From: an uncultured Gammaproteobacteria bacterium
Lineage (GTDB): Bacteria; Patescibacteriota; Patescibacteriia; UBA9934; GWF2-40-263
Assembly: GCA_964538435.1 (NCBI GenBank)
Contig: CAZIDX010000001.1
Location: 393 to 64,392, forward strand
Length of the DNA stretch: 64,000 nt
Direction of reading: 5' to 3'
The notes under the pieces were generated by a model. It was not told the DNA's origin, did not search any database, and worked only from the letters and a program-made list of their open reading frames with translations. Of this stretch, positions 12,241 to 46,337 are shown piece by piece; positions within the stretch are counted from its first letter, which is position 1; the number at the start of each line of letters is the position of its first letter. The position numbers and the translations under genes were made by a program.

Positions 12241-12290
12241 CACGTCATCCTGAGCGCCTGCCTGCCGGTAGGCAGGAAGCGAAGGATCCC
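12241..12290. repeat. Solo copy of the GIY-YIG element terminal repeat (CACGTCATCCTGA-hairpin-GAAGGATCCC) in the murF leader
   Basis: Matches the left ends of the elements at 41448 and 45948, including a covarying internal hairpin (CCTGCC..GGCAGG vs CCCGCC..GGCGG). Confidence 0.55.
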
Positions 12291-12333
12291 ACTCTCAGCA
12301 AGAAACAAGTCAACGAGCAGTATCTAAACTCAC

Positions 12334-13629
12334 ATGAATATGAAAGCGTTTATCCAGGCACAACTTAAGAAAAAGGCACAAAAACTCATTGCAAAGCACA
12401 AGCCGATGGTGATTGGAGTGACAGGTTCTGTTGGAAAGACGTCTGCGCGTAATGTGATCGCTCAGGTTCTGGGAGAAAAGTATCGCGTGCGCACAACCAT
12501 TGACAACTACAACAACGAACTCGGTTTGCCGCTGACGATTCTTGGTGAGAAATCACCTGGACGCTCAGTGCTGGGTTGGCTCAGGGTGCTCACAAAAAAG
12601 ATTGAAGACGTGCCAGAAGTGTTTGTGCTCGAATACGCTGTAGATCATCCAGGCGATATGGCTTACCTGTGCGACATTGCTGAGCCTGACATTGCAGTAT
12701 TCACACGCATCTCTCCAGTGCACGCTGAGAACTTCAGGTCAGTGGAAGAGCTCATCGAAGAGAAAGCTGTCTTGCTCGAGCGAACAAAAGAGGGTGGAAT
12801 GGTTGTGCTCAACGCAGATGATCCACGCGTCCTTGGCGCAAGCAATCACGCAAACGCACCTGCGATTACGTATGGGTTTGCTCAGAACGCAGACGTACGC
12901 GCAACTGATTATGAGCTTGCCACGCGAGAAGACTTCTCTTTTGAGCCTGGCGAGACACTCTCCGAGGTTCGCTTCACCGCCGTCACTGAAAAAACACAGC
13001 TCCCAGTTCGCCTCATCAACCTACTCGGCAGGACCGCCGCCCACGCTGTGCTCCCAGCCATTACTATCGGATGGCACCTAGGGCTAGATCCAGACGAGAT
13101 CACAAAGGGGCTTGCAAAGTCAGAGCTCGAGCCTGGGCGCATGAACCCTGTTCCAGGAATCAAAGGATCACTCATCATTGACTCAAGCTACAATGCAGCA
13201 CCTGCTTCCATGGAGGCTGGGCTCAATGTCCTGCATGAGTTCAAGCCAGTGGAGATAGCAAGACGAATCGCTGTGCTTGGTGTGATGGGGGAGCTTGGTG
13301 CAGACTCAGAGCAAGAGCATAGAATGATCGGGCTCAAGTGCGCAGAGGTTGGTGTCGATGTGCTCGTGACTGTTGGAGAAAAAGCAAGAGACATCCGCTA
13401 CGGCGCCATCGAGGCAGGAATCCCAGAAGACAAATGCGAACACTTTGAACACGCAGTAGAAGCCGGTCGTTGGATGGATGCGCACATCAAAAAGGGTGAC
13501 ATCGTGCTAGTGAAAGGATCACAATCGTCTCGCATGGAAAAGGTGGTAAAAGACATCATGGCTGAGCCACTCAGAGCAAAGGAGCTCCTGGTCAGGCAAT
13601 ATGGGAAGTGGGTGGAGGATGAGGAGTAA
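12334..13629 (+). CDS. murF: UDP-N-acetylmuramoyl-tripeptide--D-alanyl-D-alanine ligase (Mur ligase family; MurF more likely than MurE)
   Basis: Mur ligase P-loop IGVTGSVGKTS; DSSYNAAPASMEAGL motif; position downstream of ftsI. Confidence 0.7.
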   Translation: MNMKAFIQAQLKKKAQKLIAKHKPMVIGVTGSVGKTSARNVIAQVLGEKYRVRTTIDNYNNELGLPLTILGEKSPGRSVLGWLRVLTKKIEDVPEVFVLEYAVDHPGDMAYLCDIAEPDIAVFTRISPVHAENFRSVEELIEEKAVLLERTKEGGMVVLNADDPRVLGASNHANAPAITYGFAQNADVRATDYELATREDFSFEPGETLSEVRFTAVTEKTQLPVRLINLLGRTAAHAVLPAITIGWHLGLDPDEITKGLAKSELEPGRMNPVPGIKGSLIIDSSYNAAPASMEAGLNVLHEFKPVEIARRIAVLGVMGELGADSEQEHRMIGLKCAEVGVDVLVTVGEKARDIRYGAIEAGIPEDKCEHFEHAVEAGRWMDAHIKKGDIVLVKGSQSSRMEKVVKDIMAEPLRAKELLVRQYGKWVEDEE

Positions 13630-13816
13630 CGTTCAAATAGAAGGATTAAAAAGAGTAGTAGGAGTATGAGGATTCGTATTTGCGATTCCTTCTAACCCTA
13701 CTACTCTTTCTATTTGCGAGTTACTCCTTCTAACCCTTCCTATTGACAAAACCCAAAAATCGTGTACGGTCCATCAGTTCAACCGAACAAAACTTTCCTC
13801 GCAGATTCGCTGCGAG

Positions 13817-14683
13817 ATGAATTCCTGTGTGGATGCACAGGTGGTCCCCGCCATCGGCGGGGGGAACGTGAGTGGCAGCACAAATCCTGTCACAGAAAGG
13901 ATCGGATGGATGTCCGACCGTATTCGCCTCAGAGGTCCTTCGCAGAAGTTCAAACCCACAGACGGTCCCAGCAAGATGGACCTGCTCCTCGGAATCGCGG
14001 AGCCGTACGTACACGGTCAGCTCCGGGTCGTGAGTGTCAAGCTCGAGGGCATCGTCGACGAGCTGAACAAGCGATCGCGCAAAGAGCGGTTCGTCGGCTG
14101 TGTAGTGTCCTATGCACCGCTCCGCCTCAAGGACGGCAGCTTCGACCCCGACTACTGCACATTCGTGCTACAGCGAATGGTGGGTACCGGAAGAGCTGGG
14201 GATCCCGAATACCTGATCGTTCGAAGTTACGACACAAACCACCGCCGGGGATTCGAGGCAGTTCTCAGGTTCAAGCAGCCTGGCACCAGTGGTGAGTACG
14301 CACGTCGTCGTTGGGGATATCACCCTCGCATCACCAAGGTGAGCGTGGACTCAGGGCTGAGTCCGTGGAACATCATGAACTGCCTGGGTAACCCACCCGT
14401 CTTGGAAGACAGGCTTCTCGAGTTGTACCTCTCGGCAATCGGGCTCTTCGGAAAGATCGGTCTTTTCGATCCGATCACGGGCACAAGTGTCAATACCGAG
14501 GAGTTCGTGCAGGGGGCAATCGTTCGTTGCGACCTCCATCGTATCGATCGAACCATGCGCATCCGCTACGAGTTCATCGAGTCCCATACCGGAATCGCCT
14601 TCCATGGCGAGTATAACACCAGGACCGGTGAGGCCTGGCTGCGACTCGGCCACGGCTGGGACCCGAAGGATCCCTACTGCTAG
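13817..14683 (+). CDS. Hypothetical protein (start codon uncertain)
   Basis: Long ORF with a coherent composition; no recognisable motifs. Alternative starts at 13910 or 13975. Confidence 0.4.
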   Translation: MNSCVDAQVVPAIGGGNVSGSTNPVTERIGWMSDRIRLRGPSQKFKPTDGPSKMDLLLGIAEPYVHGQLRVVSVKLEGIVDELNKRSRKERFVGCVVSYAPLRLKDGSFDPDYCTFVLQRMVGTGRAGDPEYLIVRSYDTNHRRGFEAVLRFKQPGTSGEYARRRWGYHPRITKVSVDSGLSPWNIMNCLGNPPVLEDRLLELYLSAIGLFGKIGLFDPITGTSVNTEEFVQGAIVRCDLHRIDRTMRIRYEFIESHTGIAFHGEYNTRTGEAWLRLGHGWDPKDPYC

Positions 14684-14684
14684 A

Positions 14685-14750
14685 CCAACGTCTGACTTCC
14701 AACGTCTGACTTCCAAAGTCTGACTTCCAACGTCTGACTTCCAACGTCAG
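14685..14750. repeat. Tandem repeat, 14-bp unit CCAACGTCTGACTT x about 4.7, immediately after a stop codon
   Basis: Units at 14685, 14699, 14713 (one variant base) and 14727, with a partial fifth. Nested GC-rich hairpins and a T-run follow to about 14815. Confidence 0.8.
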
Positions 14751-44436: not shown

Positions 44437-44466
44437 GAAAAGCTCTGCTGCGTGCAGAGCAAGTTG

Positions 44467-44757
44467 CTAGACCGGGAAGCCGGTCAAGTAGCGGCGCATG
44501 AAGTAGTCCCTGCTCTTGATCGACGAGACAACATCGGCCTCGGACCCGGAGTAGACCAGGCGAACGCGCGGGTGCAGAAATGCGCGAAGCATCCATCCTG
44601 CTCGATCTTCACCAGATCGGCGTTCCACAGGAGGGAGTCGAACTATCTTCACGGACGCGTCTCCGATCAGGTGTTCTTTGGCCAAGCTGAGCAGCAAGGC
44701 CTTGCCTCCGAAGCGCAGGACCGTGTGATCTGATGTGCGGGTAGACTCTTGAGCCAT
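44467..44757 (-). CDS. Hypothetical small protein
   Basis: RBS GAAGGAGA; 96 aa. A shared bidirectional terminator hairpin lies at 44441-44463. Confidence 0.45.
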
Positions 44758-44827
44758 CTTTGGTCTCCTTCACCGCTTCTTGCGGACAATGAAATTATCA
44801 AAAAGCACTGAAATTGTCAAGAATCAA

Positions 44828-45931
44828 ATGTATTCTCTAAAAAACACAAAAGACTCTGCCCGCCGCGGAGAGTTAGAAACCACGCACGGAGTCATCCAAA
44901 CTCCGTTCTTCATGCCAATCGCCACCAAGGGAGCTGTAAAGACGCTCTCAAGTTTGGATATGAAAGACTTGGGTGCACAGATTCTTCTTTCAAACACTTA
45001 CCATCTCATGCTCCGCCCAGGCCTAGAGAACATGAAAGAACTCGGTGGACTCCACAAGCTAATGAACTGGAACGGTCCAATCCTCACAGACTCAGGTGGT
45101 TACCAGGTGTTCTCACTTTCAAAAATGAACAAAACGACTGAGCAAGGCGTAACCTTCCAGTCTCACATCGACGGTTCGCGCATCAATCTCACTCCAGAGC
45201 TCTCAATGCAGATGCAGTCAGCAATCGGATCCGACATCGTTATGCAGTTTGACGACGTTGCAGCAGGAGACTCAGATCGATCTCGATACAAAGAAGCCAT
45301 GGAGCGATCCCTGCGATGGGCAAAGCGATGCAAAGAATCAGTTAATCCTGAGCAAAAACTCTTTGGCATCGTCCAGGGTGGAACGCACGAAGACCTACGT
45401 GCAGAATCTGTAAAAGGCCTAATAGAGATCGGATTCGACGGCTACGCAATCGGCGGCCTCTCAGTAGGTGAACCGCGTGAAGATGCCTACAGAATCGTAG
45501 AAGCTGTGTGCAAACTCCTCCCAGAGGACAAGTCGCGATACTTTATGGGTGGAGGCATGCCCGAAGAAATCGTCACATACGTACACATGGGCGTAGACAT
45601 GTTCGATTGCGTGCTCCCATCCCGCAACGCCCGTCACGGAACGCTCTTCGTCTGGAATCAAGACCCTAAGGAGATCGAGTGGGAGAAGTATGTTGGGCTC
45701 AAACCAGACGGAATGTTCTACTCACAACTCCGTATAACAAAACAAGAGTTTGCACTCGACGAATCAGCCATCGACCAACACTGCGACTGCTACACATGCA
45801 AAAACTACTCGCGAGCCTACGTAAGACACCTCTTCTCAGTAAACGAAATCCTCGCACTCAGACTTTCCAGCATCCACAACATGCGATTCTACCTAACGCT
45901 GATGAAGAATCTAAGGAGCTCAATTAAATAG
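44828..45931 (+). CDS. tgt: Queuine tRNA-ribosyltransferase
   Basis: [28 protein letters not shown] and [10 protein letters not shown] motifs. Start set at MYSLKN (44828). Confidence 0.85.
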
Positions 45932-45947
45932 AATCACCGTCTTATTT

Positions 45948-46337
45948 TTTGTCATCCTGACCCCGCCAAAGGCGGTGGGAAGGATCTCCTAATCTTTGAG
46001 CATATGAGCAAAGAATATTTCGTCTACATGATGGCAAACAAAAACAATGCCGTGCTTTATACTGGTGTGACGAACTGTATTACAAGCAGGGTTAGGCAAC
46101 ACAAAAAGGGCACCATTGATGGGTTCACAAAGAAATATAAATGTACAAAACTCGTCTTCGCCGAATCAACAAGTGACATCTTGGCTGCTATCGAGAGGGA
46201 AAAAGAGATAAAAGGTTGGAAACGAGAGAAAAAGAACAAACTAGTTGAAACAATAAATCCTAATTGGATGGATCTGTCATCTGAATTATGAATCAGGAGA
46301 TCCTTCCTCCTCGCAACCTTGTCGTCAGGATGACAAA
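45948..46337. mobile_element. Second GIY-YIG mini-element with terminal inverted repeats (TTTGTCATCCTGAC...GGAAGGATCTCC / GGAGATCCTTCC...GTCAGGATGACAAA)
   Basis: Right end is an exact inverted copy of the outer 12-15 nt of the left end; same architecture as 41448-41840. Confidence 0.65.
46004..46291 (+). CDS. GIY-YIG nuclease-domain protein, paralog of 41509-41796
   Basis: About 65% identical by eye (YFVYMMANKNNAVLYTGVTN...REKEIKGWKREKKNKLV). Confidence 0.75.
   Translation: MSKEYFVYMMANKNNAVLYTGVTNCITSRVRQHKKGTIDGFTKKYKCTKLVFAESTSDILAAIEREKEIKGWKREKKNKLVETINPNWMDLSSEL

What the first reader, a model, noticed from the sequence alone, without database searches (positions are those of the whole stretch)
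12241..46337. Two GIY-YIG nuclease mini-elements of about 390 bp with terminal inverted repeats, plus a solo repeat end in the murF leader
The paralogous 95-aa GIY-YIG ORFs at 41509-41796 and 46004-46291 are each flanked by inverted repeats of about 45 bp (GTCATCC(T/C)GA...GGATC(C/T)CC). The left ends are at 41448 and 45948; the right ends, at 41802 and 46296, are their inverted counterparts. Each left end holds an internal hairpin whose sequence covaries between copies. A third, ORF-less copy of the left end at 12241-12290 forms the 5' leader of murF. A nuclease gene packaged between TIRs at this miniature scale resembles a homing or MITE-like selfish element. Alternatively, the repeat is a structured RNA module (leader and trailer) acquired by several genes. 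I know of no described family with this exact architecture.
Basis: partly seen in the sequence, partly recalled or inferred. Interest (0 to 1): 0.8.

Follow-up and report, generated by a model that had tools for sequence, protein, structure and literature searches.

The report
GIY-YIG nuclease genes framed by hairpin repeats
Two tiny nuclease genes in this candidate-phylum bacterium each sit between inverted copies of a short DNA hairpin repeat, and the same nuclease-plus-hairpin pairing recurs across many bacterial phyla and is absent from the matching sites of close relatives, which points to a widespread selfish DNA element for which I found no published description.

Summary
The window holds exactly five copies of one hairpin unit: GTCAT, a 5-bp stem, GA, an inner hairpin, GA, the returning stem, then ATC. 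Four of them frame two intact 95-aa GIY-YIG genes as L-ORF-R elements of 395 and 390 bp. The fifth is a solo copy in the ftsI-murF spacer.

A covariance model built only from other phyla finds these five sites and nothing else. In 80 loci from about 20 phyla the units are 24 times denser within 150 nt of the gene than beyond 500 nt. They also occur as solo copies, ORF-less inverted doublets and arrays.

Syntenic relatives (Uhrbacteria) lack the gene at both sites and lack the murF spacer. The closest homologous L-ORF-R element lies at an unrelated locus.

Several features favour a DNA hairpin over an RNA: Watson-Crick-only covariation, GNA triloops of the d(GCGNAGC) mini-hairpin type, and units on both strands.

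Best reading: a selfish nuclease-repeat partnership that resembles REP/RAYT or a homing endonuclease but uses a GIY-YIG nuclease. It is not a member of the REP/RAYT, MITE or phage homing-endonuclease families. I found no Rfam family and no paper. The mechanism is inferred.

The parts
41448..41489 (+). L hairpin unit of element 1. Sequence: CAC GTCAT CCT GA CCCCGCC-GTA-GGCGGTGGG AAGG ATC CCC. The CACCAC 5' flank is part of the unit class.
   Evidence: R1 hit at 22.6 bits, E 0.003; sequence read.
41509..41796 (+). GIY-YIG nuclease ORF 1, 95 aa. Catalytic set Y8, Y19, R29, H33, E66, N85 is intact.
   Evidence: Pfam PF01541 E 3.5e-17; family alignment; GC 39%.
41802..41842 (-). R hairpin unit of element 1, in inverted orientation. 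On the - strand it reads ACC GTCAT CCC GA ... GA GGG ATC CCC. It starts 5 nt after the stop codon.
   Evidence: R1 hit at 20.2 bits, E 0.011. Its inner part is homologous to the R end of the L082 element, with a compensatory stem change.
45948..45989 (+). L hairpin unit of element 2 (TTT GTCAT CCT GA CCCCGCC-AAA-GGCGGTGGG AAGG ATC TCC).
   Evidence: R1 hit at 31.5 bits, E 2e-5. The DNA fold gives the model structure, z -2.6.
46004..46291 (+). GIY-YIG nuclease ORF 2, 95 aa, 68% identical to ORF 1. Catalytic set intact.
   Evidence: GC 38%.
46296..46337 (-). R hairpin unit of element 2, in inverted orientation. It starts 4 nt after the stop codon.
   Evidence: R1 hit at 27.7 bits, E 1.8e-4.
12241..12310 (+). 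Solo L-type unit (core 12244-12288) with the CACCAC 5' flank. It is followed by about 17-22 nt that resemble the L-to-ATG spacer of element 1. It lies in the ftsI-murF spacer.
   Evidence: R1 hit at 15.6 bits; fold z -2.3; 14/17 match to the element 1 spacer, reached by 50 of 2000 shuffles. Relatives have ftsI and murF 4-6 nt apart.

Best explanation
These are two copies, plus one remnant, of a selfish DNA element. The element is a stand-alone 95-aa GIY-YIG nuclease gene embedded between inverted copies of a REP-like hairpin repeat. The repeat consensus is yT-GTCAT-xyz-GA-[GCGNAGC-type mini-hairpin or a longer hairpin]-GA-z'y'x'-AT-C.

**Proposed mechanism (inferred).** The GTCAT-bearing strand folds into a compact DNA hairpin when it is single-stranded or extruded as a cruciform. 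The nuclease recognises this structure together with the invariant TGTCAT head and cuts there. GIY-YIG enzymes only hydrolyse DNA and form no covalent intermediate (established knowledge). Spread therefore depends on host break repair that copies an occupied site into a cut site. This is homing-like, with the L and R units serving as short homology. Hairpin units can also be left or spread as solo copies and ORF-less doublets.

**In the window.** Both L-ORF-R copies look intact but are old: they are 68% identical. The murF-proximal unit is a left-end remnant with no demonstrated function.

**Shown.** The anatomy; the hairpin covariation; the nuclease-repeat association across phyla; insertion polymorphism; co-inheritance of L, ORF and R.

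**Inferred.** Recognition of the hairpin by this nuclease; the cut site; repair-mediated spread.
For: **Units are real and specific.**
- A model built from other phyla finds exactly the five window units.
- A strict pattern finds 319 units in the 80 loci, against 5.6 in shuffled sequence.

**Hairpin.**
- For sites defined by primary sequence alone, 61 of 64 have all three variable stem pairs Watson-Crick. G-T pairs are 1 in about 320.
- 98% of cells are paired and 6 of 7 pairs covary.

**Association with the gene.**
- Unit density is 7.6 per kb within 150 nt of the ORF and 0.32 per kb beyond 500 nt. 69 of 78 loci have a unit within 150 nt. L/R is the commonest arrangement (26 of 78). The R unit often abuts or overlaps the stop codon.
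- C-terminal extensions such as DPSLRSG and SLRSE are read-through into the R unit.

**Mobility.**
- Both sites are empty in syntenic relatives.
- An ORF-less L-R doublet occupies the tgt|orf125 site in L085.
- The 75%-identical homologue is a collinear L-ORF-R at an unrelated locus, with a compensatory stem change in R.
- In a Planktothrix plasmid the gene is inserted inside a DISARM operon.
- GC content is lower than that of the neighbours.

**DNA rather than RNA.**
- Most loops are C-GNA-G triloops, the d(GCGNAGC) mini-hairpin. Its Tm is 76.5 C as DNA, against 39 C for the RNA r(GCGAAAGC) (PMC13037366).
- Units lie on both strands and in arrays.
- No Rfam match.

**Nuclease looks active.** The catalytic residues are invariant.

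**Weak support.** Proteins that share a stem type are more alike, 59% against 53% identity, permutation p<0.001. This is confounded by host phylogeny.
Against: - There is no biochemical evidence that this nuclease binds or cuts the units.
- I found no target-site duplication, and divergence prevents defining a clean insertion boundary.
- The two window copies are only 68% identical, and no near-identical copies were found, so there is no sign of recent movement here.
- The arrangement is not fixed. R/R, R/L and L/L flanks occur in 20 of 78 loci.
- 9 of 78 loci show no strict unit within 150 nt. Some of these are detection misses, for example L001, L004 and L008.
- The two R units in the window fold poorly on their own, z -0.3 to -0.8.
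- A 95-aa catalytic domain has no obvious DNA-binding module.
- I could not test whether genomes that lack this gene clade also lack the repeat.
Confidence: 0.55

Rival explanations
1. Domesticated partnership. The GIY-YIG protein is a host-retained, structure-specific nuclease, like its relatives Slx1 and YhbQ. It processes or maintains hairpin and cruciform repeats, as has been proposed for single-copy RAYTs with REPINs. The gene is found among the repeats, but neither is currently mobile as a selfish element.
For: - The closest solved relatives are UPF0213 proteins of unknown function.
- The family is huge and ancient: 9,895 representatives at 50% identity with E<=1e-10.
- The window copies are diverged and intact, which suggests purifying selection.
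- The family is rare in phages and on plasmids.
Against: - Presence varies between close relatives at syntenic sites.
- There are two paralogues within 5 kb, in intergenic slots of a housekeeping operon.
- The gene is inserted in a DISARM operon.
- GC content is atypical.
- Close homologues lie at unrelated loci.
All of these fit a mobile or selfish element better than a vertically inherited host gene.
Confidence: 0.2
2. RNA module. The L and R units are structured 5' and 3' UTR elements for stability, processing or translation control. They were acquired by the nuclease mRNA and by other genes such as murF.
For: - The L unit lies 17-22 nt upstream of the ATG and the R unit directly after the stop codon, both in the window and in many loci.
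- Whole-element RNA folds pair the outer ends into a panhandle, z -1.7 and -4.8.
- E. coli REPs are known to stabilise upstream mRNA (my own knowledge).
Against: - The R unit is the reverse complement of L, so its RNA would carry TC/TC mismatches and pyrimidine loops in place of the conserved GA/GA and GNA features.
- Units occur on either strand, in alternating arrays, and in frame inside a CDS.
- G-U pairs are virtually absent.
- No Rfam family matches.
- The murF spacer is absent in relatives, so it is not a conserved leader.
Confidence: 0.1
3. Passenger gene. The hairpin units are non-autonomous ends (MITE-like) mobilised by an unrelated transposase encoded elsewhere. The GIY-YIG gene is cargo that happens to travel between them.
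For: - The termini read TG...CA, as in many DDE transposon ends (sequence; my own knowledge).
- ORF-less doublets exist.
Against: - The same small gene is the partner in about 20 phyla, with a 24-fold local enrichment.
- I found no target-site duplication.
- No transposase was seen next to the elements in the window or in the loci inspected.
- Unit stems co-vary with the protein clade.
Confidence: 0.08
4. Chance, or a generic terminator motif unrelated to the ORFs.
For: Each unit is a short GC-containing hairpin in an intergenic region.
Against: - No T-run follows the units. Separate terminator-like hairpins sit beside the elements, at 41356-41383 and 46366-46378 (the second was scored on the minus strand).
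- 319 units were observed, against 5.6 expected in shuffles.
- The association with the gene holds across phyla.
Confidence: 0.01

Closest known systems
REP / REPIN repeats with their RAYT (TnpA-REP) genes
   Same: - Short imperfect palindromes with a conserved unpaired 5' head.
- Dispersed as single units, inverted doublets and alternating clusters.
- The associated small nuclease gene is itself flanked by inverted units.
- Two unit types often alternate, as the Y/Z types do in BIMEs.
   Different: - The protein is a GIY-YIG hydrolase, not an HUH Y1 transposase, so it cannot carry out covalent strand transfer.
- The head is TGTCAT, not GTAG.
- Genes occur as several diverged copies at sites that vary between relatives.
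- Distribution covers CPR bacteria, Chloroflexota, Cyanobacteria, Bacteroidota, Planctomycetota and others.
Free-standing GIY-YIG homing endonuclease genes (phage T4 Seg proteins, I-TevI family)
   Same: - GIY-YIG catalytic domain with the full catalytic residue set.
- Small intergenic insertions that are present or absent between relatives.
- Spread is expected to depend on break repair.
   Different: - Only the roughly 95-aa catalytic domain is present, with no C-terminal DNA-binding domain.
- Chromosomal and rare in phages.
- Framed by a repeat family that also exists without the gene.
MITEs, and Rickettsia palindromic elements (RPE)
   Same: - Miniature size and inverted ends.
- ORF-less derivatives.
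- In the Planktothrix plasmid, in-frame insertion inside a protein-coding gene, as for RPEs.
   Different: - No target-site duplication was seen.
- No DDE transposase partner.
- Copies are not near-identical.
- Each end is itself a self-contained hairpin.
UPF0213 / YhbQ / Slx1-type stand-alone GIY-YIG proteins (PDB 1zg2, 1ywl)
   Same: Closest solved relatives by sequence. Same single-domain size.
   Different: - Those proteins have no described repeat partner.
- The present clade has its own conserved motifs (GFTKKY, NPxWxDL).
IS200/IS605 subterminal hairpins and d(GCGNAGC) mini-hairpins at single-strand origins
   Same: Strand-specific DNA hairpins serve as protein recognition signals. The loops are the same GNA-triloop mini-hairpin.
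   Different: No HUH transposase, primase or origin context is present here.

Membership tests
GIY-YIG nuclease superfamily (Pfam PF01541; UPF0213-like clade) | Significant match to the GIY-YIG catalytic domain profile. | tested here: met
   62.9 and 57.1 bits against a cutoff of 22.6. PDB profile hits to the UPF0213 proteins 1zg2 and 1ywl.
GIY-YIG nuclease superfamily (Pfam PF01541; UPF0213-like clade) | Catalytic Tyr, Tyr, Arg, His, Glu and Asn present with canonical spacing. | tested here: met
   Y8, Y19, R29, H33, E66 and N85 are invariant or nearly invariant in 32 sequences and present in both window ORFs. The spacing matches I-TevI (my own knowledge).
GIY-YIG nuclease superfamily (Pfam PF01541; UPF0213-like clade) | Endonuclease activity. 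| not testable with these tools
   Needs biochemistry.
REP/RAYT (REPIN) systems | Short palindromic repeat dispersed as single units, inverted doublets and clusters. | tested here: met
   Related loci show solo units, L-R doublets and arrays. The window has only 5 units, one of them solo.
REP/RAYT (REPIN) systems | Associated gene flanked by inverted repeat units. | tested here: met
   Both window genes. L/R is the commonest pattern in the 78 loci analysed of the 80 fetched.
REP/RAYT (REPIN) systems | Associated protein is an IS200/IS605-like HUH Y1 transposase. | tested here: not met
   The protein is GIY-YIG only.
REP/RAYT (REPIN) systems | Conserved GTAG (or CGTC) tag at the 5' end of the palindrome. 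| tested here: not met
   The head is (T)GTCAT, invariant in the alignment.
MITE / TIR DNA transposon | Terminal inverted repeats. | tested here: met
   The outer 10-16 nt are inverted and pair in whole-element folds.
MITE / TIR DNA transposon | Target-site duplication flanking the element. | tested here: inconclusive
   No direct repeat is seen at either element. Empty-site alignments are too diverged to fix the boundaries.
MITE / TIR DNA transposon | Multiple near-identical copies, and a cognate transposase with matching ends. | tested here: not met
   The copies are 68% identical at protein level. No transposase is found nearby.
Free-standing GIY-YIG homing endonuclease genes | Presence or absence at otherwise syntenic sites. 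| tested here: met
Free-standing GIY-YIG homing endonuclease genes | Catalytic domain linked to a sequence-specific DNA-binding domain. | tested here: not met
   95 aa, of which the Pfam domain covers residues 5-77. No second domain is present.
Free-standing GIY-YIG homing endonuclease genes | Cleavage of the empty allele, followed by gene conversion. | not testable with these tools
   Needs cleavage and genetic assays.
Curated structured RNA family (Rfam 15) | Match to any covariance model. | tested here: not met
   No hit on the window, on the element at E<=10, or on 33 related loci. Pedo-repair is an unrelated motif of about 200 nt.

The most novel reading that the evidence does not exclude
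This would be a previously unrecognised class of prokaryotic mobile or selfish DNA, present across many bacterial phyla. It would be a REP-like hairpin repeat family whose partner and driver is a minimal GIY-YIG nuclease rather than an HUH, DDE, serine or tyrosine enzyme. It would spread by structure-specific cleavage of DNA hairpins followed by host repair. It would seed solo hairpins, doublets and even in-frame insertions throughout genomes. The DUF559-plus-hairpin insertion at the same ftsI|murF site in a relative hints at a broader guild of 'mini nuclease + hairpin' elements.
Probability: 0.35. Interest if true: 0.85.

Novelty: new variant of a known kind. Interest (0 to 1): 0.72.

Why it matters
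- If the nuclease does act on its flanking hairpins, GIY-YIG joins HUH Y1 (RAYT) as a second enzyme class partnered with REP-like repeats.
- It would give a function to one of the largest uncharacterised small-protein families in bacteria: about 10,000 clusters at 50% identity.
- It would explain a very common source of spurious peptide tails and small ORFs in annotations, such as ...VILSEAKDL... and ...SLRSG*.
- It would explain why gene callers truncate these genes.
- It would offer a compact, structure-specific DNA nuclease for study.
- The elements insert between, and occasionally within, essential genes of reduced CPR genomes, so they may shape operon spacing and expression there.

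Tried and rejected
- **Hammerhead-like reading.** I considered GUC...CUGA-stem-GAA. It fails because the U of CUGA is not conserved (GCGA and TCGA variants occur) and G8/A9 are missing. Rfam gives no ribozyme hit.
- **Rfam.** Scans of the window, of the element region at E<=10, and of 33 related loci found nothing relevant.
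- **Pedo-repair motif.** This was recalled as a lead. It is a roughly 200-nt three-stem junction in one Pedobacter genome and is unrelated.
- **Terminator idea.** No T-run follows the units, and separate terminator-like hairpins lie beside the elements.
- **Target-site duplications.** None are visible.
- **Strand asymmetry by nearest-neighbour DNA folding.** The energies of the two strands are similar. The parameter set does not model sheared G-A pairs or GNA mini-hairpins, so the test is uninformative.
- **Exact-pattern scan of metagenome contigs for the window's L-unit class.** Only the already known relative contig was returned.
- **Reciprocal empty site for the L082 element.** The glycosyltransferase locus is not in the window.
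- **Defence and phage libraries.** No PADLOC hit, and only a weak PHROG hit of unknown function.
- **Literature.** Ten searches covered GIY-YIG with MITE, REP, RAYT, palindromic or COG2827/UPF0213/YhbQ, plus the repeat sequences on both strands. None found a description. The library lacks most subscription journals, so a prior description cannot be excluded.

Full report
**1. What is in the window**

The two ORFs at 41509-41796 and 46004-46291 encode 95-aa proteins that are 68% identical. Both match the Pfam GIY-YIG catalytic domain well above threshold.

Each ORF is preceded, 17-22 nt upstream of the ATG, by a unit reading GTCATCCTGA-CCCCGCC(GTA/AAA)GGCGGTGGG-AAGGATC. Each is followed, 4-5 nt after the stop codon, by the reverse complement of a unit with the same ends but a different middle. 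A fifth unit, GTCATCCTGA-GCG..CCTGCCGGTAGGCAGG..GCG-AAGGATC, lies at 12244-12288. This is in the 103-nt gap between an ftsI-like PBP gene and murF.

The exact 10-mer occurs only at these five places. The elements span 41448-41842 (395 bp) and 45948-46337 (390 bp).

The surrounding genes are hrcA-grpE-dnaK | GIY-YIG | nudix ... dnaJ-tgt | GIY-YIG | orf125-clpB. Named homologues place the organism among Candidatus Uhrbacteria (Patescibacteria/CPR).

**2. The flanking repeat is a member of a very widespread hairpin family**

The protein family is very large. There were more than 4,792 word-indexed hits. In the 1.84-billion-protein library, 9,895 representatives at 50% identity score E<=1e-10.

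I fetched 80 loci from one-genome-per-species contigs. They cover Verrucomicrobiota, Planctomycetota, Cyanobacteria, Chloroflexota, Bacteroidota, Bacillota, Acidobacteriota, Desulfobacterota, Gammaproteobacteria, Nitrospirota, Saccharibacteria, Paceibacterota and others.

Their flanks carry the same kind of unit. The minimal form is 25 nt:

(y)T GTCAT xyz GA GC-GNA-GC GA z'y'x' AT C (t)

- GTCA, G12, A13, T27 and C28 are invariant in the alignment, whose sequences were selected by a pattern requiring GTCA and the closing TC.
- The stem triplet varies freely: ATTGC, ATTTC, ATTCC, ATTCT, ATCCT, ATCCC, ATGCT and more.
- The stem stays complementary. When sites are picked by primary sequence only, 61 of 64 distinct sites have all three variable pairs Watson-Crick. 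Chance would give about 1.6%. The inner 2-bp stem, which was never required, is fully paired in 48 of 64.
- On a 48-sequence alignment, 98% of cells pair and 6 of 7 pairs show double changes. The outer stem was selected for complementarity in that set, so one search is the unbiased figure.
- A strict pattern finds 319 units in the 80 loci, against 5.6 in shuffled sequence.

Nothing else scores below E 0.7.

**3. Association with the gene**

- Unit density is 7.6 per kb within 150 nt of the GIY-YIG ORF and 0.32 per kb beyond 500 nt, a 24-fold difference.
- 69 of 78 loci have at least one strict unit within 150 nt.
- The commonest nearest-neighbour pattern is L upstream and R downstream, with heads pointing outward (26 of 78). 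R/R, R/L and L/L also occur.
- The R unit typically starts between -27 and +10 nt of the stop codon. Some ORFs read into it and stop at the TGA of ATGAC.
- This explains C-terminal tails such as DPSLRSG and SLRSE in database proteins.
- Many loci also carry ORF-less L-R doublets and alternating arrays. These often have two distinct stem types for L and R, which recalls BIME organisation.

In this CPR lineage the units are sparse. About 53 kb from relatives contains only the three units at the L082 element and one ORF-less doublet.

**4. Evidence for insertion and mobility**

- Three related genomes keep the hrcA-grpE-dnaK-nudix-...-dnaJ-tgt-orf125-clpB synteny but have no GIY-YIG gene at either position.
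- The dnaK terminator hairpin and the nudix start align, and the roughly 400-bp element appears as a clean gap.
- At the tgt|orf125 site the relative GCA_900089805.1 carries an ORF-less L-R doublet of another stem type, ATCTC.
- That same relative carries the closest homologue (75% identity) in a glycosyltransferase cluster. There it is again a collinear L-ORF-R unit. The inner part of its R end is homologous to that of window element 1, and its stem differs by a compensatory change: GGGAT/ATCCC against AGGAT/ATCCT. L, ORF and R are therefore inherited together while the location changes.
- The ftsI-murF junction is 4-6 nt in two relatives, so the window's 103-nt spacer with the solo unit is an insertion.
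- The solo unit shares the CACCAC 5' flank with element 1, and a 14/17 match to the spacer after its L unit (reached by 50 of 2000 shuffles). It therefore looks like a left-end remnant.
- The ORFs are 38-39% GC, against 48-52% for their neighbours.
- In a Planktothrix agardhii plasmid the gene sits inside a DISARM operon, between the MmeI-like gene and drmA, surrounded by doublets.

Points against recent activity:
- The two window copies are old paralogues.
- I saw no target-site duplication.
- I found no near-identical copies.

**5. DNA or RNA?**

Several features point to a strand-specific DNA hairpin:

1. The dominant loop is C-GNA-G (GAA, GCA, GTA, GGA). This is the d(GCGNAGC)/d(CCGAAGG) mini-hairpin. 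Its Tm is 76.5 C as DNA, whereas the RNA r(GCGAAAGC) melts at 39 C (PMC13037366). The window's longer inner hairpins end in GTA, AAA and GGTA loops.
2. The invariant GA...GA that brackets the inner stem can form tandem sheared G-A pairs on the GTCAT strand only. The complement would have TC/TC there.
3. G-T wobble pairs are essentially absent.
4. Units occur in both orientations, in alternating arrays, and in frame inside an annotated CDS.
5. No Rfam family matches.

Whole-element folds do pair the outer ends into a panhandle. That would hold equally for single-stranded DNA.

**6. Mechanism**

The proteins keep the full GIY-YIG catalytic set with I-TevI-like spacing: Y8, Y19, R29, H33, E66 and N85 (the residue roles are from my own knowledge of I-TevI). 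They are single-domain. Their nearest solved relatives are UPF0213 structural-genomics proteins. By general knowledge this clade is allied to the structure-specific nuclease Slx1.

GIY-YIG enzymes hydrolyse DNA without a covalent intermediate, so they cannot by themselves carry out cut-and-paste strand transfer.

The most economical model is a selfish nuclease-repeat partnership with three steps:
- The nuclease recognises the hairpin or cruciform with its TGTCAT head.
- It cuts there.
- Host repair copies an occupied copy into the break. Units and doublets are left or spread as by-products.

Tandem partial 'heads' (TGTCATTCTGAG plus about 11 nt, repeated three times, and comparable arrays in L023 and L071) would fit repeated cutting and sloppy repair at the head. 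This last link is speculation.

I put 0.55 on the selfish DNA-level partnership as a whole. The specific cut site and the repair route deserve less.

The rivals are a domesticated structure-specific nuclease (0.2), an RNA module (0.1), a passenger gene between someone else's MITE ends (0.08), and chance or a terminator (0.01).

**7. Comparison with known systems**

- It works most like REP/REPIN-RAYT. It fails two defining features of that family: the HUH Y1 transposase and the GTAG tag.
- It resembles free-standing GIY-YIG homing endonuclease genes in its insertion polymorphism. It lacks their DNA-binding domain and their phage or intron habitat.
- It is MITE-like in size and in having inverted ends. 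It lacks a target-site duplication, a transposase and copy identity.
- It is therefore not a member of any of these families.

Ten literature searches, including the repeat sequence on both strands, found no description. The library omits most subscription journals, so I rate the finding as a new variant of a known kind rather than categorically new.

**8. Verdict**

The selfish-element reading is supported in substance. The 'murF leader' and 'RNA module' readings are not. Interest is high because the pairing is found across about 20 phyla, involves a huge uncharacterised protein family, and is directly testable.

Noticed in passing
L091:650-1200 (relative GCA_900089805.1, ftsI|murF gap): At the very site where the window has the solo GIY-YIG-type unit, the relative carries a 112-aa DUF559 (PF04480) endonuclease ORF. 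It is flanked by a different hairpin repeat (GTCCCCCTTCTCAAGGGGG twice upstream, CCCCCCTTGGGAAGGGGGG downstream). This is a second kind of 'mini nuclease + hairpin' insertion.
   Followed up: partly
L090:15453-15533 and 17091-17255 (Planktothrix agardhii plasmid NZ_LR882964.1): L-R unit doublets lie in frame inside the annotated 1,560-aa MmeI-like CDS, giving ...VILSETKDLSGVV..SRDSSQAQNDK... This is reminiscent of Rickettsia palindromic elements. The GIY-YIG gene itself splits a DISARM operon.
   Followed up: partly
L090:18540-18600 and 19170-19400; also L023 and L071 flanks: There are tandem arrays of partial unit 'heads' (TGTCATTCTGAG plus about 11 nt, three times; GC.CATTCAGGATGACAA plus about 11 nt, three times) next to the ORF. 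These may be scars of repeated events at the head.
   Followed up: no
window:6873-6926, 31140-31193, 33687-33740: A different 43-nt near-perfect palindrome, GGGGATACCATATAAGTGCCGATCGGACCTTATATGGTATCCCC, occurs in three copies. Two of them lie inside a 104-nt, 98%-identical duplication (31115-31218 and 33662-33765).
   Followed up: no
window:23767-25919: About ten tandem coding repeats of 198-207 nt, rich in DCDD...NDCDG motifs, which suggests a large repetitive Cys/Asp-rich protein.
   Followed up: no
window:14685-14756: A 14-nt tandem repeat, CCAACGTCTGACTT, in about five copies, starting just after the 13817-14683 ORF ends.
   Followed up: no
window:41509-41535 and 46004-46030: Public gene calls for these ORFs (P0001 at 86 aa, P0005 at 87 aa) start at an internal Met. 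This removes the first (GIY) beta-strand tyrosines. The 95-aa start fits the family alignment.
   Followed up: yes
L085:3950-3975 (empty dnaK|nudix site): The empty site in the relative contains TTGTCATTTC, a head-like string, right after the dnaK terminator. This could be chance or a hint of target preference.
   Followed up: no
window:18441-18512: A tRNA gene (Rfam tRNA, 62.5 bits), followed by a terminator-like inverted repeat at 18497-18569.
   Followed up: no
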